Assembly (NCBI GenBank): GCA_949358305.1
Contig: OX442314.1
Location: forward strand, 9,114,001-9,178,000
DNA: 64,000 nucleotides
Source: Strigamia acuminata
Lineage: Eukaryota
Direction of reading: 5' to 3'
Part shown: piece after piece, positions 1 through 35,000 of the stretch
Layout: every line of letters starts with the position of its first letter
Position numbering within the stretch: position 1 is the stretch's first letter
Position numbers and translations under genes: made by a program
Notes under the pieces: model-generated
Databases searched by the model: none
What the model saw: the letters and a program-made list of their open reading frames with translations, nothing else
What the model was told of the DNA's origin: nothing

Positions 1-1060
1 TGGTAGTTTCGTACCTGCCGTAAATCGAATGTGCGCAGGAAGTGGCAGCTAACACACTCTCAGATACTGTGCACCACACTAATATTTATTTGTGGCCGGG
101 TATCCCGAGCTGTAAAACTCGGGGACAGAATGTCCGGTAGTCGCGTCTGAACCAAAACCCAACGCGTGACCCGCCAACAATCGTGTTTTCACACGAAGGC
201 AAACGAATGCACGTCTCGTAGTGGCTCATAAGCAACCCCAAACTGTCGAGTTTGAACGAGGATGGGCGATTTACTCGTGCTTATACAACGCACGGGCCCT
301 AAACCCAACTCTAAACCTGACTTAATGCTTAATTAAAGCTAAAGCCCGAATGGCAGGCGGCTAAACTAAGCTAAACGCACGCGCAAGCGAAATGAAAGAC
401 ACAAACTTCGAACTTATGGCCAACAAATCCTGTTTGGCCTTGGATAACGCGTCACGGCGATAAAACATGAACAAAAAGGAGCAGAAAAACAAATGGTGAA
501 CGAGTGGTGTAAAACCGTGAGTTAACACGCGAAATGAAATGAAAGCCTGAAACCGTGTTGCAGAATTCCAGGGCGAATGCAAAGCTACAAGTGAGCTTCG
601 GAGTTAAACCTCAGCCATGAGCACCGGCTCCAAAGGAGCACCTACGCGTTCGGGATACTGAGATCAACTGAAGAAAAAGAGGAAAAATAGGGTGAGAGGT
701 AAACTTGGACTCAACCAAGCTTGACCAATCACGGAAGAGTCAAGAGCCAATCACCACTGTCGGTGCATACTGATGAGTATGACTGATGACGACGCGTGAT
801 GACCAGAATAGATATGCAAAGAAGTTTGCATCCAAATCATAAACGAAAGAGAAAAAACTAGGAGTAGATAAGAGAAAAGTGAGAGAATGAAGAGAAAGTT
901 AGGAGTGAGTAAGGGATAAGATAGATAGAAAATGAGGAAAACTCACGAATGAACATAAACAATACAACAACACAAGGTAAAGACAAATTAAGGTTTAATA
1001 CAACACAAACACGGGTTAACAATGCGTAAACTATACGCGTAGGAAACACGGGCCGTGACA
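1..1060 (-). mobile_element. Partial LTR of a second Ty3/gypsy copy (5' LTR or solo LTR; continues off the left edge)
   Basis: Reverse complement of the LTR at 1345-2477, with scattered substitutions and indels that are densest at ~850-1010. Its TGTCACGG terminus at 1060 abuts satellite DNA rather than a PPT. Confidence 0.93.
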
Positions 1061-1344
1061 AAGAAATTTCAATAAATATCAAGAAATTTCAATAAATATC
1101 AAGAAATTTCAATAAATATCAAGAAATTTCAATAAATATCAAGAAATTTCAATAAATATCAAGAAATTTCAATAAATATCAAGAAATTTCAATAAATATC
1201 AAGAAATTTCAATAAATATCAAGAAATTTCAATAAATATCAAGAAATTTCAATAAATATCAAGAAATTTCAATAAATATCAAGAAATTTCAATAAATATC
1301 AAGAAATTTCAATAAATATCAAGAAATTTCAATAAATATCAAGA
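1061..1344. repeat. 20-bp satellite (AAGAAATTTCAATAAATATC)n, ~14 units between two head-to-head LTRs
   Basis: Perfect tandem units read directly from the sequence. Confidence 0.98.
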
Positions 1345-2477
1345 TGTCACGGCCCGTGTTTCCTACGCGTACAGTTTACGCATTGTTAACCCGTGTTTGT
1401 TCCTATTAAACCTAATTTTGTCATCTTCTTACCTTTGTTGTTTTGTTTGTGTTTGATTCGTGAGTTTTCCTCATTTTCCTTCTATCTTATCTCTTACTCT
1501 CTCCTAACTTTCTCTTCATTCTCTCACTTTTCTCTTATCTACTCCTAGTTTTTCTTCTTTAGTTTATGATTTGGATGCAAACTTCTTTGCATATCTATTC
1601 TGGTCATCACGCGTCGTCATCAGTCATACTCATCAGTATGCACCGACAGTGGTGATTGGCTCTTGACTCTTCCGTGATTGGTCAGGCTTGGTTGAGTCCA
1701 AGTTTACCTCTCACCCTATTTTTCCTTTTTTGCTTCAGTTGATCTCAGTATCCCGAACGCGTAGGTGCTCCTTTGGAGCCAGTGCTCATGGCTGAGGTTT
1801 AACTCCGAAGCTCACTCGTGGCTTTGCTTTCGCCCTGGAATTCTGCAACACGGTTTCAGGCTTTCATTTCATTTCGCGTGTTAACTCACGGTTTTACACC
1901 ACTCGTTCACCATTTGTTTTCCTGCTCCTTTTTGTTCATGTTTTATCGCCGTGACGCGTTATCCAAGGCCAAACAGGATTTGTTGGCCATAAGTTTGAAG
2001 TTTGTGTCTTTCATTTCGCTTGCGCGTGCGTTTAGCTTAGTTTAGCCGCCTGCCATTCGGGCTTTAGCTTTAATTAAGCATTGAGTCAGGTTTAGAGTTA
2101 GGTTTAGGGCCCGTGCGTTGTATAAGCACGAGTAAATTGCCCATCCTCGTTCAAACTCGACAGTTTGGGGTTGCTTATGAGCCACTACGAGACGTGCATT
2201 CGTTTGCCTTCGTGTGAAAACACGATTGTTGGCGGGTCACGCGTTGGGTTTTGGTTCAGACGCGACTACCGGACATTCTGTCCCCGAGTTTTACAGCTCG
2301 GGATACCCGGCCACAAATAAATATTAGTGTGGTGCACAGTATCTGAGAGTGTGTTAGCTGCCACTTCCTGCGCACATTCGATTTACGGCAGGTACGCAAC
2401 TACCAGGGTGTGTGAATTTACTGTTTCGCGGCGTCTTTCAAACGCTTCTAAACCACCTAGACTCGCGATCCATCACA
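1345..2477 (+). repeat. 5' LTR of the gypsy element
   Basis: TGTCACGG...CATCACA; same length as 11554-12686 and no differences seen by eye. Confidence 0.97.
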
Positions 2478-2479
2478 CT

Positions 2480-2497
2480 TGGTGCCGAAACCCGGGA
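2480..2497 (+). other. Primer binding site complementary to the tRNA-Phe 3' end
   Basis: TGGTGCCGAAACCCGGGA, 2 nt after the LTR; complement of the metazoan tRNA-Phe(GAA) end ...UCCCGGGUUUCGGCACCA. Confidence 0.92.
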
Positions 2498-2653
2498 ATA
2501 TCCCGTAGCTTTTCGATTGCTAGCCGTATAAACTGTTTCCAGTGGGCTAGTAATCATTATTCGGAAAACAAAGGTCGAGTGGTATCGTTACTCGCCTTTT
2601 TTAGAGTGGATCATCCATTTGAGTTTTGCTGCTAAATTGCTTGAGTTGACGCA

Positions 2654-4762
2654 ATGGCAGAAGGAGGGCATCCTAAAGAGGATAACTCCAAGAGTGTGTG
2701 GCCTAGCTGGATGCGTAGAGTAGGGGAGCGCTTGTGTGATGAAACTCCACGGCGTCCTCTTGATGCGCGTCCTCCGAGAACCCGCTCAGAGTATGGCTTG
2801 CCCGTGGCAAGAGGCGGTGGGCCGCCGTACCTCTTGCGACCACACGGGGATGTCACACGAGTAAAGGTAGAGGATAAATCCACTTCAACGGATAGTACCT
2901 ACTGCCCGGACACTACTCCGTCTACGCGTGAGTCTCGTGTCGATGTGTCTGCTTCGGATCTTTTAACGCCCGTGCAACCAAATCCTTCGGCGCCACCTCA
3001 ACAAAGGAGTAGTCCTGAGGATAACGTCGAGGAGGGGGATGAAGAGGCTGGTCAACGGCCTCCGGAATGGCTGCCGTATCTGCAAAATGCGGAATTGGCC
3101 ATGAATGAGCGGATGGTCCGAGCATTAAACCAGTTTGGTCAGCATGTTGACTACCGACTGGGAAATTATAGAGATGAGACTCTTGTGGGGGTGAGACAAG
3201 TGGTTAGGGCCGAAATCGTGGCATTAGCTGTACAGCCCGAGGAGGAGGTAATTCCACCAGCTCAGCAAAGACCTCATAACCCTTTGCCTGGTGATGGACC
3301 TCGTTCTGACGGTCAGAGGGAACCTGGGGGAAGTGTTCAGTCTTCACGCATTCTGACGCCTAGCGAGTTGAACAGGCAAGGAATTGCAGTAGTAGGAAGG
3401 TTACAAGGGGATGTAAATCCTCGTTTACCTTCAAAAGAGAGACCATCGGACGTGACAGCTCGCGCGGGGTCTCGAATGGGTACGCCCTCACAATGTAACA
3501 GTGAGGTGATGAGGAGTATTATACGCTCGAAGTCGACAGCTGTTAGCTTGCCGGATACAGCAAGTGTTGATCGCGCAGCAGCTGCGCGAGGGGATTCGGT
3601 AAATACGCGTTTGCAACGGGCGCGGGTCGCTCAGGCAGCGGTAACGCCGACGCCCCGGCAGCGGCCGCAGACGCGATATGATCAATATGACTTGTCGCAT
3701 GTGAGGTCGGAACATGTGCCGATATTTGATGAGGAGGATCAATCCTATAATGCGGTCGAACGATTCCTTGCAAAATTGCGCGCACATTACATTATGACGC
3801 GCATTCCGGATGAGGCGTATATTGACTTGTTCATTCCGTTGGCGCTGTGTGGGAAGCCCTTAAATTGGTACCTGCACTTACGCCATAAACCAAAAACATG
3901 GGATGAATTTGTTGTGCGTTTCCGGAAACGTTATTCCCTCAAGGAGGCCGAAGCAACGGTCTACCTAACGGATGCCTGGCAGGAAGTAGGGGATGATACG
4001 GCCGAATTTCTGTGCGAAATCAGTCGTTACCTCGAAATGATAGGTATTCGGGGGGATGGGCAACAGTGGAATATGGCGAAACATCGCCTTCAACCGCAGA
4101 TAACGGATGCAATGACTCGGTACGGAGTCCGCTTCATGTCGCAGGCCATAGAGATGGGGCAGGAGGCTGACAGCGAATTGGCGTTGCGTTCTCTTCAGCA
4201 GTATAAGTTCGATGAGCGCGGAGTGAGAAGAGGTCCGGTGCCTCGACCTCAATCCAAGGATAAGGATAAGCAAGCTGTTAAGGCGACCAAAAAGGTGGTA
4301 GAGCCTGCCAAAACAAAGGCGGCAGAGAAGCCTCCGCCTGGTCGCTTTCAGTTTGACAAACGGAAATTGGTTGCGTTGGCGGAAGTGTTTGGGGCTACGA
4401 GTGAGGACCTGCAGAGTGTTGCTGGGCAGTCCGTTGTTAGTGTTGCACCTTCGAGAGTGCCAGAGCCGCAAATAAACGCGTCTGTAAAAGTCTCGGAGAA
4501 TAAGCCGACTCCGGCTGTGGGGGCGGCACAATGTGGACATTCTGCCCACACCTTCGCCAATACGGCTAACCCCCCAACAACACCGTTGCCACCCGGAGCT
4601 GAATGGGTGCGCAATCGGAAGGACAGATGGTACATGCGTGATATTGAAAAACGCATCGCATTATGTCCCCACTGCTTTAAGCCCTGGCAGTTTCCGGGAA
4701 ACGACCAGGGTCCACTGTCCAAACCATCCAACGGAAAGGCAGTGGACCCGAAACCCAAATAA
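2654..4762 (+). CDS. gag: Gag (702 aa) with a retrotransposon capsid-like domain
   Basis: Long ORF after the PBS. Capsid-like segment VPIFDEED...LALCGKPLNWYL...TWDEFVVRFRKRY; no canonical CCHC knuckle. Confidence 0.9.
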   Translation: MAEGGHPKEDNSKSVWPSWMRRVGERLCDETPRRPLDARPPRTRSEYGLPVARGGGPPYLLRPHGDVTRVKVEDKSTSTDSTYCPDTTPSTRESRVDVSASDLLTPVQPNPSAPPQQRSSPEDNVEEGDEEAGQRPPEWLPYLQNAELAMNERMVRALNQFGQHVDYRLGNYRDETLVGVRQVVRAEIVALAVQPEEEVIPPAQQRPHNPLPGDGPRSDGQREPGGSVQSSRILTPSELNRQGIAVVGRLQGDVNPRLPSKERPSDVTARAGSRMGTPSQCNSEVMRSIIRSKSTAVSLPDTASVDRAAAARGDSVNTRLQRARVAQAAVTPTPRQRPQTRYDQYDLSHVRSEHVPIFDEEDQSYNAVERFLAKLRAHYIMTRIPDEAYIDLFIPLALCGKPLNWYLHLRHKPKTWDEFVVRFRKRYSLKEAEATVYLTDAWQEVGDDTAEFLCEISRYLEMIGIRGDGQQWNMAKHRLQPQITDAMTRYGVRFMSQAIEMGQEADSELALRSLQQYKFDERGVRRGPVPRPQSKDKDKQAVKATKKVVEPAKTKAAEKPPPGRFQFDKRKLVALAEVFGATSEDLQSVAGQSVVSVAPSRVPEPQINASVKVSENKPTPAVGAAQCGHSAHTFANTANPPTTPLPPGAEWVRNRKDRWYMRDIEKRIALCPHCFKPWQFPGNDQGPLSKPSNGKAVDPKPK

Positions 4763-7700
4763 GTCGGACGTTGGAGGCTTTAGATAGCACAAGCGGTTGG
4801 ATGGTACCCCCTGCGTTGCAGAAGACCAGTACCACCGCTCTAGCGGCTGCTAAGCCGAAAATGACAAATTTCATTATGTTGTCACCACCCGAATTTTTGG
4901 CTTCCAAAGAGCCGAAATTGATAATCGGGTTGAAGGACCGTTGTCGGCGAGACGCGGCCTTTGTTAAAATCGCCTGGATCAATATCGAGTTCATTGCAAT
5001 GATGGACAGCGGTGCACAGACGTGCATAATGACCATGGCATTGTATGAAAAACTCGCAAAAGAGATAGGCATAGAAATGGTGAAACTGGACGAAACCATC
5101 CGGACAGCCGACAATCATATTACCAAAGTGGTTGGCTGTGCACAACTAGCCGTCCGTGCTCCTACGGCGGTAGTTTGCTTTACTTGCCTCATCATAGAGG
5201 AGGGATCTCAAGAGCTCCTCTTGGGGCTGGATTTCTGCAAGGCAGTTGGTCTTTGTACCGACCACGCCAACGAATACTGGTTCCTCTTAGGGGATGGCAC
5301 GAGGCACCCCTTCCTCACAGAAGAGCAAGCTAGGGCATCTGATCCAGTGATCTTATTCCCTTTAACAAAGGAACAACCTTCCCTTCCGGAGGGAATTGCG
5401 GTTAAGGGGCCCCCTCTTTACAACCTTCCGGCTTTGCGAAATCCGCCGGTCCCCAAGCCAGAGGAAACGGCGGTGCCCGTCAAGCTGGTCGGCCAAAAGG
5501 AGCGGGAACTGACCCCCGAGGTTCCTGCAAAGGAGGAGAAGGCGGAGGAGAAGCCTGTGGTTGCTACAAAACCACCAATTAGTGAAGCTAACTGCGTCTT
5601 GCTGGGCAAACGTAATTTTGAAGTGGAGTTATTTGAGCCTCCACACGAAGACAATCCTTGTATTGTCAAAGTGGTTGTTGCTCGGAGAGGGCAAGACGCT
5701 CAAAAATGGACATTCCTATGGTCACCTAAGAGACGGGAAAAAACCGCACGAAGGAACATCGTGCGAGTTACGCGTAAACCTGGGAAAAAGGCCATGTGTT
5801 TGAGTCAGATGCGTCGAGCCATTAAGTTGCGTAAAGCAAGAGTTAAAGCGGTGGCTAAACGAACGTGGGTTGAGACTGCAGATTCTCCGAGTGGAGAGAG
5901 AAATGTCGTCAACAACGTGGAGCCCTCTTCTGCTTGTCAAAAGGCGGAAGGTACTCCAAGACAGCATGATGTTAATTTCGTCCAATACATCCCAAACAGA
6001 GATCCTACCAACCTCGCTTGGGTGTATGATCAGCTGTGTAACCAGTTGGAGCCAAAACGCATTAATCACTTAATGGATGCGTTGAAACCAGTTGCTCATA
6101 TCTTTCGTGAGGAACTGGGGCTCTGTAATAACACACAGTTTGAGGTGAATCTGAAGCCTGATTTCCGACCTATTCATGTCCCGGTACGTCCGGTGAATCC
6201 GGCAAAAAGGGAAATAATCGATGCCTATATCGACCAAAAGTTGGCGCAAGGAGTAATCAAGCGCTCCAAAAGCGACTGCGCCGTGGCGCCCGTAGTTGTC
6301 CCCAAAAAGGACGGACGCTGGCGCTGCGCAATGGATTTTAGGCCGATCAACTCCCAAACTTTGCCTGATGTTTACCCCCTCCCAGATATCGACAACATCT
6401 TTGCATATCTGGGTGGGGCAAAATGGTTTTCCATCATCGACGGAAGGGAAGCGTTCCACCAAATAGGGGTCCGACCTGGAGATGAACGATATCTCGCGTT
6501 TATCACCCACAGGGGACTCTTTGAGTATACGCGTATGCCCTTCGGTCCGATCAATGGCCCCGCCACCTTACAAAGGGCCATGAATTTGACTCTAGCTGAG
6601 CATCTCTACAAGTTCGTCTTTGTGTACATCGACGACATAATCGTGTTTAGTAAGACCTTCGAAGAGCATGTGACCCACTTGCAAAAAGTGCTCACTTTGC
6701 TCGACCAAGCGGGGTTTACAATGAACGCAGGAAAAACGGAGTTGTGCAAGACAAGTCTTGAGGTGCTCGGACATATTGTCGAGGAGGGACTTATTCGTCC
6801 TAACCCAAAGAAGACCGACGCGATCAGCAAGTACCCGGCCCCCACTAACTTGAAGGAATTACAACGCTTCAAGGGTATGATCGGGTACTACTCGTCGTTC
6901 TTTCCAGGATATTCCAAGACCTGCGAAGTCTTTCGAGTTCTTATGCGTAAAAATGCGCCATGGAACTGGACGGCGGCACACCAGGCAGCTTTCGAGTATC
7001 TCAAAAATCAAGTGTCGTTATCTACCTTGCACAGGAATTTCCCGGACTGGAGTAAACCTTACATCTTACAAACCGATGCGAGTTATTCTGGTCTGGGAGC
7101 CGCGTTGATGCAAATAAACAATAACGGCGTACGCGTCCCAATTGCCTTTGCGTCGCGGGCCTTAAACAGTGCAGAGAAAAACTATACGACGACGGAAATT
7201 GAGTGCCTGGCCGCCGTCTGGGCCGTAAAACGCTTTAGAGCATACCTCGAGTTGATGGATTTCTATCTTGAGAGTGACCACAAGTCTTTAACATGGCTGT
7301 GGGCCCAGCGCGAGCCAAAGGGCCGACTGGCGAGATGGATTCTTTCGCTGTCGGAATATCGATTCACATTCCTCCACTGTAGTGGGACAAAGAATCGGGT
7401 TGCCGATGCGTTGAGTCGGGCGCCAGTTGACCCACCGATCGAGCTGGATGACGAAGACTGTCCAGCGTTGGATGACACGTACTACTGTGCGTACTTCGAT
7501 GATTTCCACGACTGGCCAGTACTCCAAATGGAAGAGTTAGATGAGGTGACTCATTGGAAATCATCCAACTGTAAAATCGTTAGAGCGGTAACAATGCGTA
7601 AGCAGAAACGTGCGTTCCTGGCGAGATTGAACGCCTTGTCGGCTACGGCAGTGGATGTATGTCCGGTGGAGGACGAGCCCCCTCTAAAAAGAGGAAGGGG

Positions 7701-9807
7701 ACGTCCACGGAAAAATCCCATTGCAAAGGGGCCGACTCAGGCGGGACCCTTGCCGGGAGCACAGCCTGCTCTGCCAAAGTCGGACGAAGAATCTGTGGCG
7801 GTGTCTTTGCCTAAGGAAGACGTTCCTGTAAAAAGGAAAAGAGGTCGTCCGCGGAAGACTCCGGCCAGCGGGGATATGACGCAGCCTAAATCTTTACCCG
7901 TAACGCGTCCTATTCCACCAACTTCGGAAGAAGAGTCAGGTGCAGTTTCTTTGCCAATTGACGTTCCTGAGAAGAGAAAACGGGGGCGACCAAAAAAGGT
8001 TGTGGAGAAGCGACCGGTCGGAAGACCGAAGAAGAAAACTCCCATCATCCTCGATCGCTCTACGGGCTCGGAAGCCAGTGAAATGTCTTTGGACAGTGAG
8101 GAGCTGCCGGGAGACACGGACTCCGAAGAGTTTCAAATTCCTGTGATTCCACGGGACTTGGCACCGAGGACGCAACCACGGCGAGATTTGGCCTCACCAA
8201 CACCCTCTATTGATGCGGAGTTGCTTGACCACTCTGAGCACTCGTCTGACGAGAGTTTCTACTCACTTCCGGCGGATCATCCGACAATTGAGATTCTCCC
8301 AACACAGAAAGCCGTTAAAGAAGCCCAACTAGCCGATGAATGGTCTAAGGGACTTATATTATATCTCAATTCAGGGTCTCTGCCGCCAGGTGAGATGGAG
8401 GCTGCAGAACTTAAGAAACGAGCGGTGGACATGGCGTTACACCGTGGTCTGCTCTGCAAGTTTCCACCAACTAAGATCGGTCAACGAGCTCCTACGCGTC
8501 GTATTTACCTCCCTCAATCCCTTCGTTACAAGTATTTTCATTGCTTACATTTCCCACCAACCTCTGGCCATCTCGGGATCGAGAAAACACTAATGCGTCT
8601 AAAAACACGTGTGTTTTGGCCGGGGATGAAAAAAGATGTAGCAAATTGGATTAAAGTTTGTGAACCTTGTCAAAGGGCGAAGGTCGAGCGGAGGCTACCG
8701 TATGGCGAGATGGAGACCGCGAAACCGAGACGGTTGTTTCGGACCATTTACGTCGACTACTTCGGGAAAAAGTTGAAGTCCACTGGCGGACACTGCTACG
8801 CGTTCGTAATGGTGGATGCAGCCAGTCGCTGGGTGGACGTGAGACTCACCGAAAAGGCAGACGTTTCTACAACAGTGAAACAACTTAAAAAGTTCACTTA
8901 TAGATGGGCTTATCCAAAAACTATAATAAGTGATAACGCCCCAACCTTTCGCTCTGCCAAGTTCCAGGCACAGTGCGCCGAAATGGGAATGGTAAATAAA
9001 TATATTTCCGCCTATCATCCGCAAGGGAACTTGGCGGAAAGACTGAATCAATCTTTAAAAACGTGCATCCTCGCGTATATAGATGAACATACGCGTTGGG
9101 ATAAGCACATTGGTTCTTTCATTTTAGCAATTAATACTGCTTATCAGACCTCACTCAAATTTTCACCTTACATGATGGTCACAGGACAAGAAGCACGTTT
9201 TCCAGGAGATGTCGACTCTGACACTGACGACGGAGAACCCTTACCGCCAGATGAATCGCGTTTTCTTCATCGATACTTATTACGCATCCGTGAAGAGGCG
9301 AGGAAGAACTTGGATGCCGCCCATCTACGCCATAAGCGTTGGTATGACCGGAAACGGCGGCCCCATACGTTTAAACCCGGGGATTGGGTCACCGTCAAAA
9401 GTCGTGTTTTGTCATCAACTGATAAACAAATAAGTTCGGGTTTCCAACACCGGACTGAAGGCGTTTATATGATTCATCGACTCCTGGGACCAAATACCGT
9501 GCTCTTGATGGACCAGGACGGGAAGATTTCCCAACCTATTCATGTGTCGGATCTTCGCCATTGGTACCGGGCTGAAGAGCCGGAAATTGAAGTTTCCGAT
9601 GTCTCCAGTGTGGCTAGTGGGGCAGAGGATCACGAGGAATTGGATTCTGAGTTGGAAATTGATGAGGACATTCCCCAAGAAGACTTGGATGATATTTCTG
9701 CACGCGTTGTTAAATTCCAAACTGAAGTCCGTAGTATTTGCGTCGACTTCGAAGAAAGGAATAAACGCGTCAAAACATCGAAATTAGCGGCAGAAATCAT
9801 CTCCTAA
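4681..9807 (+). CDS. pol: Pol polyprotein (protease, RT, RNase H, AT-hook/acidic linker, integrase), probably expressed as a Gag-Pol frameshift fusion
   Basis: MDSGAQ protease; WRCAMDFR, RMPFG and YIDD RT motifs; QTDAS, TEIECLA and ESDHKSL RNase H motifs; HHCC (HFPPTSGH...CEPC), YVDYF, SDNA and GNLAER integrase motifs; no internal stops. Confidence 0.97.
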   Translation, partial: ALAVSGKRPGSTVQTIQRKGSGPETQISRTLEALDSTSGWMVPPALQKTSTTALAAAKPKMTNFIMLSPPEFLASKEPKLIIGLKDRCRRDAAFVKIAWINIEFIAMMDSGAQTCIMTMALYEKLAKEIGIEMVKLDETIRTADNHITKVVGCAQLAVRAPTAVVCFTCLIIEEGSQELLLGLDFCKAVGLCTDHANEYWFLLGDGTRHPFLTEEQARASDPVILFPLTKEQPSLPEGIAVKGPPLYNLPALRNPPVPKPEETAVPVKLVGQKERELTPEVPAKEEKAEEKPVVATKPPISEANCVLLGKRNFEVELFEPPHEDNPCIVKVVVARRGQDAQKWTFLWSPKRREKTARRNIVRVTRKPGKKAMCLSQMRRAIKLRKARVKAVAKRTWVETADSPSGERNVVNNVEPSSACQKAEGTPRQHDVNFVQYIPNRDPTNLAWVYDQLCNQLEPKRINHLMDALKPVAHIFREELGLCNNTQFEVNLKPDFRPIHVPVRPVNPAKREIIDAYIDQKLAQGVIKRSKSDCAVAPVVVPKKDGRWRCAMDFRPINSQTLPDVYPLPDIDNIFAYLGGAKWFSIIDGREAFHQIGVRPGDERYLAFITHRGLFEYTRMPFGPINGPATLQRAMNLTLAEHLYKFVFVYIDDIIVFSKTFEEHVTHLQKVLTLLDQAGFTMNAGKTELCKTSLEVLGHIVEEGLIRPNPKKTDAISKYPAPTNLKELQRFKGMIGYYSSFFPGYSKTCEVFRVLMRKNAPWNWTAAHQAAFEYLKNQVSLSTLHRNFPDWSKPYILQTDASYSGLGAALMQINNNGVRVPIAFASRALNSAEKNYTTTEIECLAAVWAVKRFRAYLELMDFYLESDHKSLTWLWAQREPKGRLARWILSLSEYRFTFLHCSGTKNRVADALSRAPVDPPIELDDEDCPALDDTYYCAYFDDFHDWPVLQMEELDEVTHWKSSNCKIVRAVTMRKQKRAFLARLNALSATAVDVCPVEDEPPLKRGRGRPRKNPIAKGPTQAGPLPGAQPALPKSDEESVAVSLPKEDVPVKRKRGRPRKTPASGDMTQPKSLPVTRPIPPTSEEESGAVSLPIDVPEKRKRGRPKKVVEKRPVGRPKKKTPIILDRSTGSEASEMSLDSEELPGDTDSEEFQIPVIPRDLAPRTQPRRDLASPTPSIDAELLDHSEHSSDESFYSLPADHPTIEILPTQKAVKEAQLADEWSKGLILYLNSGSLPPGEMEAAELKKRAVDMALHRGLLCKFPPTKIGQRAPTRRIYLPQSLRYKYFHCLHFPPTSGHLGIEKTLMRLKTRVFWPGMKKDVANWIKVCEPCQRAKVERRLPYGEMETAKPRRLFRTIYVDYFGKKLKSTGGHCYAFVMVDAASRWVDVRLTEKADVSTTVKQLKKFTYRWAYPKTIISDNAPTFRSAKFQAQCAEMGMVNKYISAYHPQGNLAERLNQSLKTCILAYIDEHTRWDKHIGSFILAINTAYQTSLKFSPYMMVTGQEARFPGDVDSDTDDGEPLPPDESRFLHRYLLRIREEARKNLDAAHLRHKRWYDRKRRPHTFKPGDWVTVKSRVLSSTDKQISSGFQHRTEGVYMIHRLLGPNTVLLMDQDGKISQPIHVSDLRHWYRAEEPEIEVSDVSSVASGAEDHEELDSELEIDEDIPQEDLDDISARVVKFQTEVRSICVDFEERNKRVKTSKLAAEIIS
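4696..4777 (+). other. Programmed -1 ribosomal frameshift signal (slippery heptamer plus stem/pseudoknot)
   Basis: G GGA AAC at 4696-4702 in the gag frame. The pol frame is -1 and open from 4681. Stem 4708-4719 pairs with 4738-4749; loop TCCAACG (4727-4733) is complementary to CGTTGGA (4769-4775). Confidence 0.85.
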
Positions 9808-10160
9808 TCGTGTCAATGTTTTTGTTTATTCTTTGACAATTTTTAGTGTATTTTGTTTATTTTCTCCGGTTATTGCACCTTTTCATGTTCATTCTGCGCA
9901 TGTCGGGACTCAAGTTCGCTATTTGTGATTGCTAATAAGCAATTTGCTCAAGTGGTGGCGCTGAACGTCATTGGTCAGCTGACCAATGAGTCAGTTTTCA
10001 CACATGCGTGTGACCGCCATTGTTTTTCCACTTGTTGAGCAACGCGTATGCCTCGTGTAAGCGGGCGGAGATTGAAAACGCGTCGAGGCGATACACTTGA
10101 GCGCCTGACGGTAGAGGATTTGAGCCTGTTAAGTGTGCTGGTAGCCTTTGAGATTTTATC

Positions 10161-10943
10161 ATGGCGGACCAGGACAGCAGTTCCGAGGGGGACGAATCAC
10201 TCGATTTTACATCGGATGAGGAGTTTTATGAGGATCTTAGGGGAAAGGAGTTAGCCCTTTTGGAGAAGTTGGACGCGATCGATTGGTTCCACCCGGAGGA
10301 CAACCCATATCTTGGCAGTATTACTGGATCGATCAAGGACCGAGCGATGTCCCGGCGGCTGGGTTGGTCAACAGATTTGTCGGGCCCCCAATCACAGTTG
10401 CCCATCCGACATCCGGATTTGGTGGCAACGGGTCCACGTCGACGATGTTTCGGAGACGCGTCACCTTTCAACATGCTTTCGATCCCTCGAGCCACCGACT
10501 GGGAGACGGCTATACGACACGTGGCAGCGAGGCAGCGGTCCGATGGAAACCGGATGCGATTCCTGGACTACCAGGATTTTCCAACTACATTTTGGGCGCG
10601 GAAGGGATTTAACGAAATTTTCCCCTTCGGCACCCTCGACTGGCAGTGTCCAACGCGTCGACGAGCGACGTCGTATATTCAGACAGACCCGGATTTGTGG
10701 CGGCAGTTTTTCTACGCCATCGCCCGCACCGAGCACGGATGGCCTGAATCGCAGGCCCATGCCATTTTGGAACTTCGTAACGGACAAATCCTCTTCCTGG
10801 AAAGTCTCATCGCAGACGTACTTACGCGTTACCATCCGCGTACGGAGAAGCAGATGGAGGATGTGCTGGTTTATCGCGTCGTTGGATTGGTGGAGGAGCT
10901 TCTCCAGCTGATGTTCCCGGACGGCGCCAGTGATAGTGACTAG
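10161..10943 (+). CDS. Extra ORF3 of the gypsy element (260 aa, unknown function, not env-like)
   Basis: ATG-initiated GC-rich ORF between pol and the 3' LTR. Acidic N-terminus; no visible signal peptide or transmembrane segment. Confidence 0.65.
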   Translation: MADQDSSSEGDESLDFTSDEEFYEDLRGKELALLEKLDAIDWFHPEDNPYLGSITGSIKDRAMSRRLGWSTDLSGPQSQLPIRHPDLVATGPRRRCFGDASPFNMLSIPRATDWETAIRHVAARQRSDGNRMRFLDYQDFPTTFWARKGFNEIFPFGTLDWQCPTRRRATSYIQTDPDLWRQFFYAIARTEHGWPESQAHAILELRNGQILFLESLIADVLTRYHPRTEKQMEDVLVYRVVGLVEELLQLMFPDGASDSD

Positions 10944-11540
10944 CCAGGAAGTACCATTGCGAACTTGGTGAACGGTTTCATGAACGTGACTTTTGTTTTG
11001 TGCGCAACTTCTAGGTTCAAATGGATAAGTCTCCATTTGGGCGCGTGTTTAGTTTTATTGTTTGTGTTTAGCATTTCAAGTGATATTTGTGAACATTATA
11101 TTTTACCCGACTGTGATATATAATTTATTTCGTTTGTTTTCCAGTGTTTTCCGCGCCTGTTGTACCTATCCGCGTGCCCGGGAGACGCCTCATTCCTCCT
11201 CCGAGAATCATGTGCCGGTGGAGATGACCCCCTAAATTTTCCTCTCGGTCGTGTGGATGGGTGCAATGAGCGTAGGAGTTCCAGCAATCAACGATTGCTT
11301 GGAAGAGTAAGTTTGTGTTAGTTTTAGCTTTATTCCAAGTGTCAATTTGCCTTACTGTGATTTGAGTTTATGTGTTAACGCGTCTCACGCGATTGTTTTG
11401 ATTTGCATCATGTTCATTTTTGATTTTGATTCGTTTATTTTTGATTGTGTTTAATTCGCTAATGTTGCGAGTGATTATGTTCTTGATTTTGATTTGATTG
11501 TATCGTTTCATTACTTCATCAAACAGAGTAATAAAACTCT

Positions 11541-11553
11541 GGCTGTGGGGGCG
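11541..11553 (+). other. Polypurine-tract-like G-rich element
   Basis: GGCTGTGGGGGCG immediately 5' of the 3' LTR. Confidence 0.6.
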
Positions 11554-12686
11554 TGTCACGGCCCGTGTTTCCTACGCGTACAGTTTACGCATTGTTAACC
11601 CGTGTTTGTTCCTATTAAACCTAATTTTGTCATCTTCTTACCTTTGTTGTTTTGTTTGTGTTTGATTCGTGAGTTTTCCTCATTTTCCTTCTATCTTATC
11701 TCTTACTCTCTCCTAACTTTCTCTTCATTCTCTCACTTTTCTCTTATCTACTCCTAGTTTTTCTTCTTTAGTTTATGATTTGGATGCAAACTTCTTTGCA
11801 TATCTATTCTGGTCATCACGCGTCGTCATCAGTCATACTCATCAGTATGCACCGACAGTGGTGATTGGCTCTTGACTCTTCCGTGATTGGTCAGGCTTGG
11901 TTGAGTCCAAGTTTACCTCTCACCCTATTTTTCCTTTTTTGCTTCAGTTGATCTCAGTATCCCGAACGCGTAGGTGCTCCTTTGGAGCCAGTGCTCATGG
12001 CTGAGGTTTAACTCCGAAGCTCACTCGTGGCTTTGCTTTCGCCCTGGAATTCTGCAACACGGTTTCAGGCTTTCATTTCATTTCGCGTGTTAACTCACGG
12101 TTTTACACCACTCGTTCACCATTTGTTTTCCTGCTCCTTTTTGTTCATGTTTTATCGCCGTGACGCGTTATCCAAGGCCAAACAGGATTTGTTGGCCATA
12201 AGTTTGAAGTTTGTGTCTTTCATTTCGCTTGCGCGTGCGTTTAGCTTAGTTTAGCCGCCTGCCATTCGGGCTTTAGCTTTAATTAAGCATTGAGTCAGGT
12301 TTAGAGTTAGGTTTAGGGCCCGTGCGTTGTATAAGCACGAGTAAATTGCCCATCCTCGTTCAAACTCGACAGTTTGGGGTTGCTTATGAGCCACTACGAG
12401 ACGTGCATTCGTTTGCCTTCGTGTGAAAACACGATTGTTGGCGGGTCACGCGTTGGGTTTTGGTTCAGACGCGACTACCGGACATTCTGTCCCCGAGTTT
12501 TACAGCTCGGGATACCCGGCCACAAATAAATATTAGTGTGGTGCACAGTATCTGAGAGTGTGTTAGCTGCCACTTCCTGCGCACATTCGATTTACGGCAG
12601 GTACGCAACTACCAGGGTGTGTGAATTTACTGTTTCGCGGCGTCTTTCAAACGCTTCTAAACCACCTAGACTCGCGATCCATCACA
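11554..12686 (+). repeat. 3' LTR of the gypsy element
   Basis: Direct repeat of 1345-2477. Confidence 0.97.
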
Positions 12687-14725
12687 AAGAAATTTCAATA
12701 AATATCAAGAAATTTCAATAAATATCAAGAAATTTCAATAAATATCAAGAAATTTCAATAAATATCAAGAAATTTCAATAAATATCAAGAAATTTCAATA
12801 AATATCAAGAAATTTCAATAAATATCAAGAAATTTCAATAAATATCAAGAAATTTCAATAAATATCAAGAAATTTCAATAAATATCAAGAAATTTCAATA
12901 AATATCAAGAAATTTCAATAAATATCAAGAAATTTCAATAAATATCAAGAAATTTCAATAAATATCAAGAAATTTCAATAAATATCAAGAAATTTCAATA
13001 AATATCAAGAAATTTCAATAAATATCAAGAAATTTCAATAAATATCAAGAAATTTCAATAAATATCAAGAAATTTCAATAAATATCAAGAAATTTCAATA
13101 AATATCAAGAAATTTCAATAAATATCAAGAAATTTCAATAAATATCAAGAAATTTCAATAAATATCAAGAAATTTCAATAAATATCAAGAAATTTCAATA
13201 AATATCAAGAAATTTCAATAAATATCAAGAAATTTCAATAAATATCAAGAAATTTCAATAAATATCAAGAAATTTCAATAAATATCAAGAAATTTCAATA
13301 AATATCAAGAAATTTCAATAAATATCAAGAAATTTCAATAAATATCAAGAAATTTCAATAAATATCAAGAAATTTCAATAAATATCAAGAAATTTCAATA
13401 AATATCAAGAAATTTCAATAAATATCAAGAAATTTCAATAAATATCAAGAAATTTCAATAAATATCAAGAAATTTCAATAAATATCAAGAAATTTCAATA
13501 AATATCAAGAAATTTCAATAAATATCAAGAAATTTCAATAAATATCAAGAAATTTCAATAAATATCAAGAAATTTCAATAAATATCAAGAAATTTCAATA
13601 AATATCAAGAAATTTCAATAAATATCAAGAAATTTCAATAAATATCAAGAAATTTCAATAAATATCAAGAAATTTCAATAAATATCAAGAAATTTCAATA
13701 AATATCAAGAAATTTCAATAAATATCAAGAAATTTCAATAAATATCAAGAAATTTCAATAAATATCAAGAAATTTCAATAAATATCAAGAAATTTCAATA
13801 AATATCAAGAAATTTCAATAAATATCAAGAAATTTCAATAAATATCAAGAAATTTCAATAAATATCAAGAAATTTCAATAAATATCAAGAAATTTCAATA
13901 AATATCAAGAAATTTCAATAAATATCAAGAAATTTCAATAAATATCAAGAAATTTCAATAAATATCAAGAAATTTCAATAAATATCAAGAAATTTCAATA
14001 AATATCAAGAAATTTCAATAAATATCAAGAAATTTCAATAAATATCAAGAAATTTCAATAAATATCAAGAAATTTCAATAAATATCAAGAAATTTCAATA
14101 AATATCAAGAAATTTCAATAAATATCAAGAAATTTCAATAAATATCAAGAAATTTCAATAAATATCAAGAAATTTCAATAAATATCAAGAAATTTCAATA
14201 AATATCAAGAAATTTCAATAAATATCAAGAAATTTCAATAAATATCAAGAAATTTCAATAAATATCAAGAAATTTCAATAAATATCAAGAAATTTCAATA
14301 AATATCAAGAAATTTCAATAAATATCAAGAAATTTCAATAAATATCAAGAAATTTCAATAAATATCAAGAAATTTCAATAAATATCAAAAAATTTCAATA
14401 AATATCAAGAAATTTCAATAAATATCAAGAAATTTCAATAAATATCAAAAAATTTCAATAAATATTAAGAAATTTCAATAAATGTTCAGTAATCTAAAGA
14501 AATAACAAATATTGAGAAGAAATACTAGTATTACTAAATATTGAGAAATATTGAGAAATATCAAGATATATTGAGAAATATCAAGAAATATTGAGAAATA
14601 TTGAGAAATATCAACAAATATTTAGAAATATTGAGAAATATTGAGAAATATCAACAAATATTTAGAAATATCAAGAAATATTAATAAATATTGAGAAGTA
14701 AGAAATATTAATAAATATTGAAAAA
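12687..14725. repeat. 20-bp satellite (~90 units, to ~14482) decaying into a 10-bp repeat (TTGAGAAATA/TCAAGAAATA), within intron 2 of a Star-like gene
   Basis: Read directly. The 20-mer is a dimer of two related 10-mers, TCAAGAAATT and TCAATAAATA. Confidence 0.98.
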
Positions 14726-14792
14726 TTTCAATAAAAATAGACATTTTTGATAGATGTCAACAAGAATTGGCAAATTCCAAATAATGACTTAC

Positions 14793-15156
14793 AGTTTTGA
14801 AAATTCTTGAACTCAAATTGGCTAACGCAACCGATCCTGGATCCGAAACAAATGGATCCTCTAATTTATATGGATAGGAATTAGGTTTAATCAAAACCTC
14901 ACTTCTAATGTATTCAATCAGCAATGGGTCTAGCTGCTCTCTTCCAGCCATATCAAAATCATTCCACTTTCTTTTCAATTCTCTTGAAACACAACCTGAA
15001 AACAATCCATAACAAATCATCAAAAAAAAAGAATACACATAAATATGCATTTTCCATACTAATATTTTGACTGACAATCCAAGAATACATCAAAATGGTA
15101 ACAACAAGAAGAGGTATAAATGATACCAGTATTTTCTTCTTCATTAATTTGTGCAT
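14793..15156 (-). CDS. Star-like/FkbM methyltransferase-domain gene B', exons 1-2 (15156-15060, 14995-14793); remaining exons expected beyond the left edge
   Basis: Same translation as exons 1-2 of the complete gene at 32049-35194. GT/AG boundaries are in phase and there is an N-terminal TM helix. Confidence 0.85.
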
Positions 15157-15544
15157 GATTGATTATGTTTTTCCAGGAAAGATTCAGAGTTCTAGTATTC
15201 CTGTTTGTGTGCACATCCTGCTGTGTTTGGTTTGTCTGTTAGGTGTGGATAGTATTTTATCTACATTTTATAGTCATTTTATTATGAAAATCTTTTAATA
15301 TCCCACCATAAAATGCAGACTAGGATTGATGTTGATGAACTTGGATTTGCCTTTATTTGACTTTCCCAGATATCAAGTGTCGACGGAGTGTACCGTTGAC
15401 TAAAACCTAAAACCATTACTATACAAAATAAAATCACAACTAAATCTGTAAAATGTTGTCAAGGATTCAGGATAGAAGAAATGGCAACAGCGTATGGTGA
15501 TGTTGGGAGCCTAAAATGAATTTTTTATTGCCTAAAATGACTTT

Positions 15545-15684
15545 GACACGCTAGGTGCGATGCGATTCGCGCCGCCTCGCAAAGCGATTTTGACGTCATC
15601 AAAAATGACGTTAGGTCACACCTGATTGGCTGCAATCAAAATCGCAGACCAAAAAGTACGCGCCGCCATCGCTCCTAGTGTGTC
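15545..15684. mobile_element. Short MITE-like element (duplicate at ~35583-35722)
   Basis: Imperfect terminal inverted repeat GACACGCTAGGTGCGATG / CATCGCTCCTAGTGTGTC; GC-rich island in AT-rich DNA. Confidence 0.55.
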
Positions 15685-15792
15685 TCTAGCATAATAGTGA
15701 ATCTTTTATTGTCAAATGTGAATTTTTTTGGACTAAAAAGGAAATTTTAAATACCGGTATGGTTTTTTTTTGTGCAAAAATGAAAGAAAAAA

Positions 15793-23506: not shown

Positions 23507-23881
23507 GTTTTCACACTATCCGTATTCCTGTCTGTGTGCACATCCTGATATAGTTGGTTTGGATAATATTTCATCTATATTTTATAGTCATTTTATTATG
23601 AGTCTTTCCAGGCTTACTTTTAATATCCCTGAGTAAAATGCAGAGTCAATGTTAACACAGAATAAAACATAATGGTCGTGGGACAACCGGACAAGGCCCA
23701 CTTATCTTGCCATGTTATATGTACCACGGAAAGGTCAATTGACTCTGATCGTTAATAGATCCGAATAAGGGTCAGCTGACTCTAATCACAAGTTTTATTG
23801 GCTTTGGATGTTTATTAATTAATAAACCTTTATCCAGAGAAGGCAAAGTCTTACGAGAGTCGTTCTCGTCACGTTCTTAGC

Positions 23882-23939
<58 letters not shown>
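23882..23939. repeat. (TTAT)n microsatellite, absent from the duplicate block
   Basis: Read directly; the paralogous site at ~37797-37810 lacks it. Confidence 0.9.
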
Positions 23940-23941
<2 letters not shown>

Positions 23942-24687
23942 TCGCACTCCAAAGGAGTAAAAAGAAATGAGATACAAGTGAGGTAGGTTAGGTTTATCTT
24001 AGTTAACGGCTAGTAATATGGTAATATTATCTGCCAAAGGAAGAATCGTCACACATCATAAATAAGTCATGTTTTAATATAGTTTTTATTGAGATTATTC
24101 TAAAGTTAAAGAATAAATAATTCGTGTGTTTTGAGAATTTCAAGTGTCATTCTTGAACATTCTCACATTGTAATAGTTTTAATAATTAGTAAGTTAGTTT
24201 AGTACTTTAGTATTGAAAAGTCCCGTCATGGCAACCGTCTGTAACCTTAGTTTTAGTTTAAGATTAATTTAATGAAGATTCAGGTTTACAACTGTCTTTA
24301 TGAAAAGGAAATCATGTTTATTTTTTTCCAGTGTGATGTAATCGTTTTTATGCATGAAATCTTCTATTTCTTTGGGTTTTTTGTTGTTGTAATGATCAAC
24401 TACAAAAACATTGATGTTGATTTTATGAAAGGGAATTGTCTTCAGCACCTGCAACTCATATCCTTCCACGTCCAGCACGAAGTAGTCGATATTGGTTAAA
24501 TTAGCGGCGAACAACAAGGAATAAACGGGAAAACAGTCAGCCAGAAACGTACTAAAAGATTTCTTTTTTACCAATTTACTGTGCAATCCGTTTGAACTCA
24601 AAGGCATCTGTAAAACGCAACGATTTTCAACACCAACACAAAATATTTCATCATGCATTCAAAGTTTCAGTTTCCGCTATTTTCAGT

Positions 24688-24844
24688 AGCTGCATTCAAA
24701 AATTAAAATATTTTGTTTTACTTCAATTTTAAAACCAAAATGACATCGTTTCATGTCCTATTTATTAAATTAAACTATATTAATTATTTATTTCTAATTC
24801 TAATTATATATGTATAATAAATTTATATATTTTTGAATGCAGCT
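24688..24844. mobile_element. MITE with TIR AGCTGCATTCAAAAAT and 3-bp TSD AGT (PIF/Harbinger-like); other copies at 39413-39569 and 47089-47225
   Basis: TIRs, TSD, and an empty paralogous site at ~16195-16208. Confidence 0.85.
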
Positions 24845-24945
24845 AGTGTTTCTGTAAACAGAATGAACGCTAATAACAGCCAACAAAAGGTGCAAAAACA
24901 GAAAGCAGAACTAGAGTGATTTTCCAAGTGATTTCTCCAACCTGG

Positions 24946-25080: not shown

Positions 25081-25146
25081 CAACCTGGTGTTGAGTTTCA
25101 CAATCAAATACAAAATGGCTCCCACAGAAAATGGATGCCGGTGGCA

Positions 25147-32048: not shown

Positions 32049-35000
32049 TTAAAGATATTTAAGATATTTCTTTATGAAGATAAAATCATAAACATTCTTT
32101 TCCAACGTGATGTAGCCCATTGTTTTCATGAAAGCTTCTAGTTCCTCGGGTTTTTTGTTGTTGTAATGTTCTACTGCAAAAACATTGATGTTGACCTTTT
32201 GAAAGGGAATGGTCTTCAACACTGGCAACTCAAATCCTTCAACGTCCAGCACGAAGTAATCGATGTTCGTGAGATTTGCAGCATTCAACAAGGAATACAC
32301 TGGGAAACAGTCAACCAGATACGAACCTGAATATGTAACGTTATTTTCTCCCAATTTACTCTGCATCCCGTTTGATGTCAAAATCATCTGTAAAACACAA
32401 ATCATCGTTATGCGCATTCAAATTTCAGTTTTTTCTGTTTTTAGTGTTTCGGGAAACAGAATGGAGACCGAAAACAGCCATAAACCATCCTCAAAAAATG
32501 CATAAATATACTCCAAACCCATACAACGTGGTCCTAACTCCTATTGGTTGAGCCGGATTACGCCTAACTGTGGACTATGCTCTACTACGCGTGAAAAGTA
32601 GTTCTGTTTATTTTCAATGAATTTCAGTGTAAAAAGTGACTAGAATTGTTTCTACTGTTTACAGAAACACAACAAATTATTTAAAAAGAAACTTTATGTG
32701 GTCCCGATTGCATATTAACAAACTACAGGAGTGACTAATACATCTACCGGAATGATTAACGTAGGAAGGGCAAGTTCTGCTCAAATTGCGCTCACCTCGC
32801 TTTAACTGGGTCAAACAAAGCAAAACAAGCGAAACAAATCAAACTAACACCCAGCACACAGACGATAAATTCAAATTTTCATGGCCGTTCAAACTATTGA
32901 TGCGTTAGTCATTCCTGGCCAGGAAATCAGCACAGGGATTCCTGAAGCGCCTGCTGAAATTTGGCTGGACAATTGGCGATAAGTTTTGTAAGTCCAAGTA
33001 GAGTGCAATTGCATATAAACTATACAGTATGATGTTTGTTATTACTTTTTCTGTTTTATTGTGAGGGCTAAGACAAGCCTGCATCATGTAGGATTTACGA
33101 TTCGAAAGCACCAACGAATAGAATTGAACAGGATGCGGTTCCACGAGAAGTCCTGTCCAGCCTAGATATCGTTCGAGGTAGATGGTCATTGAATGAGACT
33201 CCGGGTGGTATGCACCAGCTTCAAAAAAAATCCCATTTTTTTTCTAATTTGATAAAACAATTTATATAAATTGCAAGAAAAGCTGATAAATCTTTGTTAA
33301 ATTTCAATAAAATCTGAGAAATTATTGATAAATTTAAAATTTTATGAAATTTTAAGAAATATCAAGAAATATCAAGAAACATCAAGAAATTTCAATAAAT
33401 ATCAAGAAATTTCAATAAATATCAAGAAATTTCAATAAATATCAAGAAATTTCATTAAATATCAAGAAATTTCAATAAATATCAAGAAATTTCAATAAAT
33501 ATCAAGAAATTTCAATAAATATCAAGAAATTTCAATAAATATCAAGAAATTTCAATAAATATCAAGAAATTTCAATAAATATCAAGAAATTTCAATAAAT
33601 ATCAAGAAATTTCAATAAATATCAAGAAATTTCAATAAATATCAAGAAATTTCAATAAATATCAAGAAATTTCAATAAATATCAAGAAATTTCAATAAAT
33701 ATCAAGAAATTTCAATAAATATCAAGAAATTTCAATAAATATCAAGAAATTTCAATAAATATCAAGAAATTTCAATAAATATCAAGAAATTTCAATAAAT
33801 ATCAAGAAATTTCAATAAATATCAAGAAATTTCAATAAATATCAAGAAATTTCAATAAATATCAAGAAATTTCAATAAATATCAAGAAATTTCAATAAAT
33901 ATCAAGAAATTTTAATAAATATCAAGAAATTTCAATAAATATCAAGAAATTTCAATAAATATCAAGAAATTTCAATAAATATCAAGAAATTTCAATAAAT
34001 ATCAAGAAATTTCAATAAATATCAAGAAATTTCAATAAATATCAAGAAATTTCAATAAATATCAAGAAATTTCAATAAATATCAAGAAATTTCAATAAAT
34101 ATCAAGAAATTTCAATAAATATCAAGAAATTTCAATAAATATCAAGAAATTTCAATAAATATCAAGAAATTTCAATAAATATCAAGAAATTTCAATAAAT
34201 ATCAAGAAATTTCAATAAATATCAAGAAATTTCAATAAATATCAAGAAATTTCAATAAATATCAAGAAATTTCAATAAATATCAAGAAATTTCAATAAAT
34301 ATCAAGAAATTTCAATAAATATCAAAAAATTTCAATAAATATCAAGAAATTTCAATAAATATCAAGAAATTTCAATAAATATCAAGAAATTTCAATAAAT
34401 ATCAAGAAATTTCAATAAATATCAAGAAATTTCAATAAATATCAAGAAATTTCAATAAATATCAAGAAATTTCAATAAATATCAAGAAATTTCAATAAAT
34501 ATCAAGAAATTTCAATAAATGTTCAGTAATCTAAAGAAATAACAAATATATGAGAAGAAATACTAGTATTACTAAATATTGAGAAATATTGAGAAATATC
34601 AAGATATATTGAGAAATATCAAGAAATATTGAGAAATATTGAGAAATATCAACAAATATTTAGAAATATTGAGAAATATTGAGAAATATCAACAAATATT
34701 TAGAAATATCAAGAAATATTAATAAATATTGAGAAGTAAGAAATATTAATAAATATTGAAAAATTTCAATAAAAATAGACATTTTTGATAGATGTCAACA
34801 AGAATTGGCAAATTCCAAATAATGACTTACAGTTTTGAAAATTCTTGAACTCAAATTGGCTAACGCAACCGATCCTGGATCCGAAACAAATGGATCCTCT
34901 AATTTATATGGATAGGAATTAGGTTTAATCAAAACCTCACTTCTAATGTATTCAATCAGCAATGGGTCTAGCTGCTCTCTTCCAGCCATATCAAAATCAT

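What the first reader, a model, noticed from the sequence alone, without database searches (positions are those of the whole stretch)
7670..8290. AT-hook cluster in front of the integrase: candidate satellite-targeting module
Seen: the linker between RNase H and the integrase HHCC region contains KRGRGRPRK (~7687), KRKRGRPRK (~7831), KRKRGRPKK (~7972) and VGRPKKK (~8017). These partly arose by internal duplication (SDEESVAVSLP..DVPVKRKRGRP / SEEESGAVSLP.DVPEKRKRGRP) and are followed by an acidic Ser/Asp/Glu tract, an HMGA-like layout. Known: AT-hooks bind the minor groove of A/T tracts, HMGA and Drosophila D1 bind AT-rich satellites, and chromoviruses steer integration through a domain fused to integrase. 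No chromodomain is visible here. Inference: an element-encoded HMGA-like tether steers integration into phased A-tract intronic arrays, matching where both copies sit. I cannot check whether this is already described.
Basis: partly seen in the sequence, partly recalled or inferred. Interest (0 to 1): 0.9.

Follow-up and report, generated by a model that had tools for sequence, protein, structure and literature searches.

The report
AT-hooks ahead of retrotransposon integrase
A young, intact jumping gene carries three AT-hook motifs in a long linker just ahead of its integrase; they likely tether its insertion machinery to AT-rich DNA, and the three insertion sites seen fall in or likely beside one host gene family rather than only in a repeat array.

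Summary
An intact Ty3/gypsy element (1345-12686, identical LTRs, 4-bp TSD) has a 356-aa RNase H-integrase linker, predicted disordered, with three canonical AT-hooks and one partial; Pfam AT_hook passes its cut-off (25.7 vs 17.4). Related linkers have medians of 71-92 aa, and 0 of 327 anchored rows hold a hook. A Strigamia maritima relative keeps two hooks in an otherwise unalignable linker. A separate 31-member gypsy clade carries the motif at the integrase C-terminus, so hooks probably arose twice. Integration looks non-random: two independent, oppositely oriented copies abut the same position of one 20-mer array, 284 bp apart. But the only other junction recovered is not in the array; it reads as an exon of a paralogue of the host FkbM-methyltransferase family. 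The array looks like a locus-scale minisatellite, not a major satellite, and a hook-less BEL element also lies beside an array. Best reading: an element-encoded AT-DNA tether giving regional bias (0.45). NLS or generic DNA binding is the main rival. Binding, retention on processed integrase and causation are untested. Ten literature searches found no description. New variant of a known kind.

The parts
1345..12686 (+). Full-length Ty3/gypsy LTR retrotransposon (copy 1), TG...CA ends
   Evidence: best PDB sequence match Ty3 Gag-Pol, E 1.7e-93
1345..2477 (+). 5' LTR, 1133 bp, 0 mismatches to the 3' LTR (very recent insertion)
11554..12686 (+). 3' LTR, preceded by a G-rich polypurine-tract-like stretch
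2480..2497 (+). Primer binding site (the tRNA-Phe label is recalled, not tested)
   Evidence: recall
2645..4762 (+). gag ORF, 705 aa stop to stop
   Evidence: Retrotrans_gag E 0.007, below cut-off
4681..9807 (+). pol ORF PR-RT-RH-linker-IN, 1708 aa, overlapping gag by 82 nt in the -1 frame
7420..8304 (+). Expanded RH-IN linker; pol aa ~988-1198 predicted disordered
7687..7713 (+). AT-hook 1 (KRGRGRPRK)
7831..7857 (+). AT-hook 2 (KRKRGRPRK)
7972..7998 (+). AT-hook 3 (KRKRGRPKK), duplicate of the hook-2 unit
8017..8037 (+). Partial hook (VGRPKKK), lacks the RGR core
8065..8270 (+). Acidic Ser/Asp/Glu-rich tract
8305..9561 (+). Folded integrase: NED-like region, HHCC finger, DDE core, beta-rich C-terminal domain; no chromodomain found
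1341..1344 (+). Left TSD (AAGA)
12687..12690 (+). Right TSD (AAGA)
1..1060 (-). LTR of a second, independent copy (96.2% identical), opposite orientation, abutting AAGA at the same array register; cut by the window edge
1061..1344 (+). Array segment between the copies: exactly 14 perfect 20-mers plus AAGA
12687..14735 (+). Rest of the 20-mer array (87 perfect units), inferred intronic in an FkbM-family gene on the minus strand
33337..34773 (+). Duplicate copy of the 20-mer array with no insertion (53 perfect units)

Best explanation
This intact gypsy element encodes three AT-hooks in a predicted-disordered arm directly ahead of integrase, which likely stays on the processed enzyme and would tether the integration complex to AT-rich DNA, likely biasing insertion towards an array-rich gene cluster rather than strictly into the array. 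Shown: the motifs, their position, the duplication, conservation in a Strigamia relative, two same-register insertions, and a third junction outside the array. Inferred: protease cleavage near the RNase H end leaves the arm on integrase; the hooks bind A/T minor grooves multivalently (48 and 47 aa apart); the integrase core chooses the final 4-bp site; the same basic motifs probably double as NLS.
For: Pfam AT_hook passes its cut-off on the linker; 0 of 20,000 shuffles reach 3 hooks. The linker is 356 aa against medians of 76 (119 of 120 anchored), 71 (106 of 150) and 92 (102 of 120); no anchored row has a linker hook, including 8 with linkers over 200 aa. Strigamia protein P0123 has 2 hooks plus an acidic stretch ahead of IN: 18/22 identity in the hooks, and no BLAST hit better than E 2.5 once they are masked. 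One contig in run X3 rejoins the window only at 7686-7721 (hook 1) and from 7960 (hook 3), sides 30-32 nt (table 5; weak). The motif recurs at the IN C-terminus in a 31-member clade (support 1.0) that excludes this element, at the end where chromoviruses carry their tether. Two independent copies share 1 of 20 registers, 284 bp apart; rough chance 1e-5 to 2.5e-4 under assumed 15-50 copies and a 150-300 Mb genome. The third junction was found through the LTR alone and hits the same host gene family (16-nt exact match; 1 of 5,000 shuffles reached 16 or more). Precedents: LEDGF NLS plus AT-hooks tether HIV IN (PMC4176367, PMC11354804, passages); the IN N-terminal extensions of Ty3 and DGLT-A act in targeting (PMC6101501, passages).
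Against: There are no binding, localisation or cleavage data. Only 3 junctions are known. The third is 63% AT, like the window's non-array background (63%), and lies outside the array. AT-rich arrays occur all along the window (21% of non-TE sequence), so a generic AT tether does not by itself explain concentration in one gene family. A BEL element without GRP motifs inserted 14 bp from a 31-mer array. The hooks are 3 of 5 NLS-like motifs. The register used is not the most symmetric one (3 of 8 pairs; best 6 of 8). The RT tree places this element poorly (support 0.19). Copy number and genome size are assumptions. The window was chosen because of the clustering.
Confidence: 0.45

Rival explanations
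1. The motifs serve as nuclear localisation signals and non-specific DNA/chromatin binders. The clustering has another cause, such as an open or permissive gene-cluster hotspot, a host tether, or tolerance of insertions in redundant paralogues.
For: The hooks coincide with 3 of 5 K[KR]x[KR] motifs in linker plus IN. LEDGF's AT-hooks are described as enabling non-specific DNA binding (PMC11354804, passage). The third site is an ordinary-AT exon. A hook-less BEL element is in the same cluster beside an array.
Against: An NLS needs no G-R-P core, yet RGRP is kept three times here, twice in P0123 and across a separate clade. Tolerance alone would not put two copies at one register.
Confidence: 0.3
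2. The hooks bind the element's own cDNA (AT-rich patches in the LTRs) and compact or stabilise the pre-integration complex, acting on donor rather than target DNA.
For: The Sleeping Beauty GRRR AT-hook contributes to substrate recognition (PMC7827188, passage). The Ty3 NED stabilises LTR contacts (10.1101/2021.07.27.453949, passage). The LTR has short A/T runs near both ends.
Against: The LTR region is not especially AT-rich compared with the arrays (81% AT). This reading does not explain the clustering.
Confidence: 0.13
3. Strict satellite targeting: the hooks recognise this phased 20-mer and insertions fall inside it at a fixed register.
For: 2 of 2 window copies are in the array at the same register.
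Against: The third junction is not array (13/30). The duplicate array at 33337-34773 is empty. Array depth is only about 2-6 times element depth in runs X3 and X2, of the order of this one locus (contig depth is a rough guide only).
Confidence: 0.12

Closest known systems
Chromoviruses and Ty3 (IN C-terminal chromodomain tether)
   Same: Ty3/gypsy pol order and an accessory module on integrase; Ty3 Gag-Pol is the best PDB sequence match; PFV and Ty3 intasomes are the best fold matches.
   Different: No chromodomain was found. The module is on the N-terminal side, predicted disordered, and would read DNA minor grooves rather than histones or TFIIIB.
Ty3 and DGLT-A integrase N-terminal extension (NED)
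   Same: Sequence N-terminal to the HHCC finger contributes to targeting (PMC6101501, passages); an NED-like folded region is present here.
   Different: The known NED is about 70 aa and binds TFIIIC subunits; here about 280 extra aa with AT-hooks precede it.
LEDGF/p75 tether of HIV-1 integrase
   Same: An NLS plus AT-hooks linking an integrase to chromatin (PMC4176367, PMC11354804, passages).
   Different: LEDGF is a host protein and also uses a PWWP domain; here the hooks are encoded by the element in cis.
HMGA and Drosophila D1
   Same: Several AT-hooks in a disordered chain followed by an acidic stretch; these proteins bind AT-rich satellites (PMC11354804, passages and section 11).
   Different: No homology beyond the motif was shown. 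Hooks are 47-48 aa apart, arose partly by local duplication, and are embedded in a polyprotein.
Gypsy elements with a C-terminal RxRGRP[RK] motif (found here; named sources include Loxostege, Dendrolimus, Zophobas, Anthophora, Trichonephila)
   Same: The same motif on the same enzyme: 61 of 119 in the hook-biased set, 3 of 106 and 3 of 102 in the other two.
   Different: Opposite end of integrase, usually 1-2 copies, and a separate RT clade. No description was found in the searches.
Errantiviruses (gypsy, ZAM, Idefix subgroups) with sequence-specific 4-bp targets
   Same: 4-bp TSD and apparent site preference (PMC5408687, passages).
   Different: Their targets are palindromic (TATA, CGCG, ATAT); AAGA is not. 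ORF3 here has no Pfam match, env included.

Membership tests
Ty3/gypsy LTR retrotransposon | LTRs with TG...CA ends, PBS, 4-6 bp TSD | tested here: met
Ty3/gypsy LTR retrotransposon | pol order PR-RT-RH-IN with Ty3-like RT | tested here: met
AT-hook protein | RGRP core flanked by basic residues; Pfam PF02178 above its cut-off | tested here: met
   (25.7 vs 17.4 on the isolated linker; 13.2 on the whole pol)
AT-hook protein | Minor-groove binding to A/T tracts, competed by distamycin | not testable with these tools
   needs EMSA or footprinting
HMGA family | Small stand-alone protein with three hooks and an acidic tail | tested here: not met
   the module is internal to a 1708-aa polyprotein; only the layout resembles HMGA
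Chromovirus | Chromodomain at the integrase C-terminus | tested here: not met
   no Pfam chromo hit; the model shows a beta domain, an acidic loop and a long helix. A vestigial Ty3-type chromodomain can evade sequence search, but no second beta domain is predicted.
Target-specific retrotransposon | Most copies inserted in one defined target | tested here: inconclusive
   2 of 3 junctions in the array at one register; the third in an exon-like sequence of the same gene family; no genome held
Integrase-borne tether | Module remains on mature integrase after protease processing | not testable with these tools
   cleavage sites unknown; no conserved aromatic site between hooks and NED is evident in the P0123 alignment
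Errantivirus | env ORF3 and palindromic target | tested here: not met
   ORF3 has no Pfam hit; TSD AAGA is not palindromic

The most novel reading that the evidence does not exclude
AT-hooks are an unrecognised third class of integrase tether in Ty3/gypsy elements, evolved at least twice (N-terminal in this centipede-associated lineage, C-terminal in a large arthropod clade). Here they steer a whole family into one minisatellite-marked host gene cluster, with the integrase cutting at a fixed register of the repeat.
Probability: 0.25. Interest if true: 0.85.

Novelty: new variant of a known kind. Interest (0 to 1): 0.6.

Why it matters
How animal LTR retrotransposons choose their insertion sites is mostly unknown outside chromoviruses, Ty elements and errantiviruses. 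An element-encoded AT-hook tether would be a DNA-shape-reading counterpart of the chromodomain and a cis version of LEDGF. It makes a genome-scale test possible: hook-bearing versus hook-less gypsy families against the AT content and repeat content of their flanks. The common C-terminal version occurs in named insect genomes, so the test can be run on public assemblies.

Tried and rejected
No genome is held for this window, so insertions could not be mapped. The search for related loci: viral contigs gave nothing; metagenome contigs gave 16 distant loci (25-37% identity over long matches), 8 with measurable linkers of 76-106 aa and none with linker hooks. No RNA holder was listed; this says nothing about expression. 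No contig spanning the array-LTR junction was listed in X1-X3, but only 24 of 116 pieces are shown and short low-depth links can be filtered, so this was not used as evidence. Contig depth ratios (element about 13-20 times presumed single-locus contigs) are rough and are not copy numbers. Dyad symmetry does not explain the register used. The recalled idea that Ginger transposases carry AT-hooks failed: 'hook' occurs 0 times in PMC2836005. Troyka (PMC12440569, passages) and PMC6338049 (part 1 of 4) were not relevant. The 1998 Aravind and Landsman AT-hook survey (recalled) was not held under the id tried and may list retroelement hooks. The ESM Atlas gave no result for ORF3 or the linker. Three look-ups of earlier findings were blank. 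Capture of a host HMGA gene was considered and not adopted: no similarity beyond the motif, and local duplication explains hooks 2 and 3. No GyDB clade could be assigned, as no reference set is available. No supplements were read.

Full report
1. Observation. Three have the full RGRP core with basic flanks (7687, 7831, 7972); the fourth (8017) lacks the first R. Pfam places RNase H at aa 789-893 and the H2C2 finger at 1278-1335. The isolated linker passes the curated AT_hook cut-off (25.7 vs 17.4 bits, E 7.6e-6), although the whole polyprotein did not (13.2). None of 20,000 shuffles of the linker gave three RGRP[RK]. The units holding hooks 2 and 3 are a DNA-level duplication (score 104; null maximum 64 of 2,000); hook 1 versus hook 2 is weaker (77 vs 66). 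AlphaFold on a 64-row alignment gives pLDDT mostly under 50 across pol aa ~988-1198, a confidently folded integrase from aa ~1209, and no chromodomain-like unit after the C-terminal beta domain. Alignment depth over the linker is very low, so low pLDDT there is consistent with disorder but does not prove it. The best fold matches are PFV and Ty3 intasomes.

2. The element. It spans 1345-12686 with two 1133-bp LTRs (0 mismatches), a PBS, gag, pol in the -1 frame, an unassigned third ORF and a 4-bp TSD, AAGA, inside a 20-mer array. A second LTR on the minus strand (1-1060, 96.2% identical) joins the array at the same AAGA. The spacer is exactly 14 units plus AAGA. Different LTR sequence and opposite orientation point to two independent events at 1 of 20 possible registers. 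Only one side of the second junction is in the window. The family is multi-copy, and the linker is covered in runs X1, X2 and X3; X6 holds only scraps.

3. How unusual is the linker? Measured with the same anchors, it is 356 aa against medians of 76 (119 of 120 anchored, one search set), 71 (106 of 150, one search set) and 92 (102 of 120, RT/RH-only query, one search set). No anchored row has a hook in the linker, including 8 linkers over 200 aa (three proteins occur in two sets, unanchored rows were dropped). The closest relatives are fragments, six from the centipede Strigamia maritima and one unnamed JGI protein (43-77% identity), so the host is likely a related arthropod (inference). P0123 keeps two hooks and an acidic stretch ahead of integrase: 18 of 22 hook residues are identical, and with hooks masked no BLAST hit is better than E 2.5. 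One X3 contig rejoins the window only at hooks 1 and 3 (weak, short sides). This pattern suggests selection on the motif (inference). Separately, the same motif lies at the integrase C-terminus in 61 of 119, 3 of 106 and 3 of 102 rows; the first two queries contained the hooks and so are biased. In an RT-RH tree of 106 sequences (window, top 70 and 35 further hook-bearers out of 297 long matches), 31 C-terminal-hook proteins form a clade with support 1.0 that excludes this element, whose 12 nearest neighbours are hook-less; its own placement is weak (0.19). Convergent origin is the likelier reading.

4. Does it target the satellite? For: two same-register insertions 284 bp apart, with rough chance 1e-5 to 2.5e-4 under assumed copy numbers (15-50) and genome sizes (150-300 Mb) (assumptions, and the window was selected for this). 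Against the strict form: laying contigs on the 5' junction gave one other flank, in X2 as a single contig and, by the arithmetic of its two-contig cell, in X1 as well. It matches the array at only 13 of 30 positions, is 63% AT, and on the opposite strand reads through the CFPVY motif shared by five exons of the window's FkbM/Methyltransf_21 gene cluster, with a 16-nt exact match at 32294 (1 of 5,000 shuffles reached 16 or more). It is a different paralogue (16-19 of 30 identical to the five), and its location is unknown. All three known junctions thus involve one host gene family, but only two the array. The window alone holds about 149 perfect units, and array depth is only about 6 times (X2) and 2 times (X3) element depth, so the 20-mer looks like a locus-scale minisatellite (depth is a rough guide). 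The duplicate array is empty. Arrays are 21% of non-TE sequence, and a BEL element with no GRP motif lies 14 bp from one.

5. Mechanism. Most likely (0.45): the protease cuts near the RNase H end, leaving a disordered arm on integrase. Its three hooks would grip A/T minor grooves, as HMGA hooks do (PMC11354804, section 11), hold the complex in array-marked chromatin, and let the core pick a 4-bp site nearby, sometimes within the array and sometimes in a neighbouring exon. All steps beyond sequence and placement are inferred. Rivals: NLS or generic DNA binding with another cause for the hotspot (0.30; the hooks are 3 of 5 NLS-like motifs); binding to the element's own cDNA (0.13); strict satellite targeting (0.12).

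6. Known systems and literature. It is a Ty3/gypsy element; not a chromovirus, errantivirus or HMGA gene by the tests above. It would work like LEDGF's NLS plus AT-hook tether (PMC4176367, PMC11354804, passages) placed in cis, at the end where the Ty3 and DGLT-A extensions help targeting (PMC6101501 and 10.1101/2021.07.27.453949, passages). Sleeping Beauty uses an AT-hook on its own ends (PMC7827188, passages). Ten full-text searches listed no paper describing AT-hooks in a gypsy polyprotein; 'integrase + RGRP + retrotransposon' returned 0. Most hits were seen only as listings. The library omits most subscription journals, Repbase and GyDB, and the 1998 AT-hook survey (recalled) could not be read, so prior mention is not excluded.

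7. Verdict. A real, conserved and apparently undescribed accessory module on a gypsy integrase, with suggestive but thin evidence of non-random integration and no direct link yet between the two. New variant of a known kind; interest 0.6.

Noticed in passing
proteins P0001-P0120, e.g. P0013, P0060, P0079, P0083, P0101: RGRP[RK] AT-hook-like motifs at the integrase C-terminus of many arthropod gypsy elements (61 of 119, hook-biased query); 31 of them form one well-supported RT clade. No description was found in the searches.
   Followed up: partly
window 10152-10943 (+): Third ORF between pol and the 3' LTR, 260 aa from ATG at 10161, acidic N-terminus, no Pfam hit; present in runs X1-X3 by depth. 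An overlapping 218-aa ORF lies at 10255-10911.
   Followed up: partly
window 17191-23080 (-): BEL/Pao-type LTR element (label from its domain order and motifs, recalled; not scanned) with 5-bp TSD ACTTA, 14 bp from the end of a 31-mer array; gag-pol is split by one stop at 20195.
   Followed up: partly
window ~13300-28400 and 33337-41845: Recent segmental duplication (97-98.6% identity) of a tandem cluster of FkbM/Methyltransf_21 (Star-like; that name is recalled) genes; 5 exons with the CFPVY motif lie in the window.
   Followed up: partly
window-wide: About 18 AT-rich arrays with periods of 20-22 and 30-31 bp (near multiples of the helical repeat), 21% of non-TE sequence, 81% AT.
   Followed up: no
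window 43604-46359: Long inverted repeat pair (43604-44775 vs 46359-45191, 95%), possibly a foldback or TIR element.
   Followed up: no
window 47605-49332 (-): 575-aa ORF with RG/RD-rich N-terminal part and a long Glu/Ala hexamer-based repeat.
   Followed up: no
window ~5350-5970 (pol aa ~225-430): The PR-RT spacer is also unusually long and has a basic Lys/Arg-rich stretch; a second candidate nucleic-acid-binding or NLS insert.
   Followed up: no
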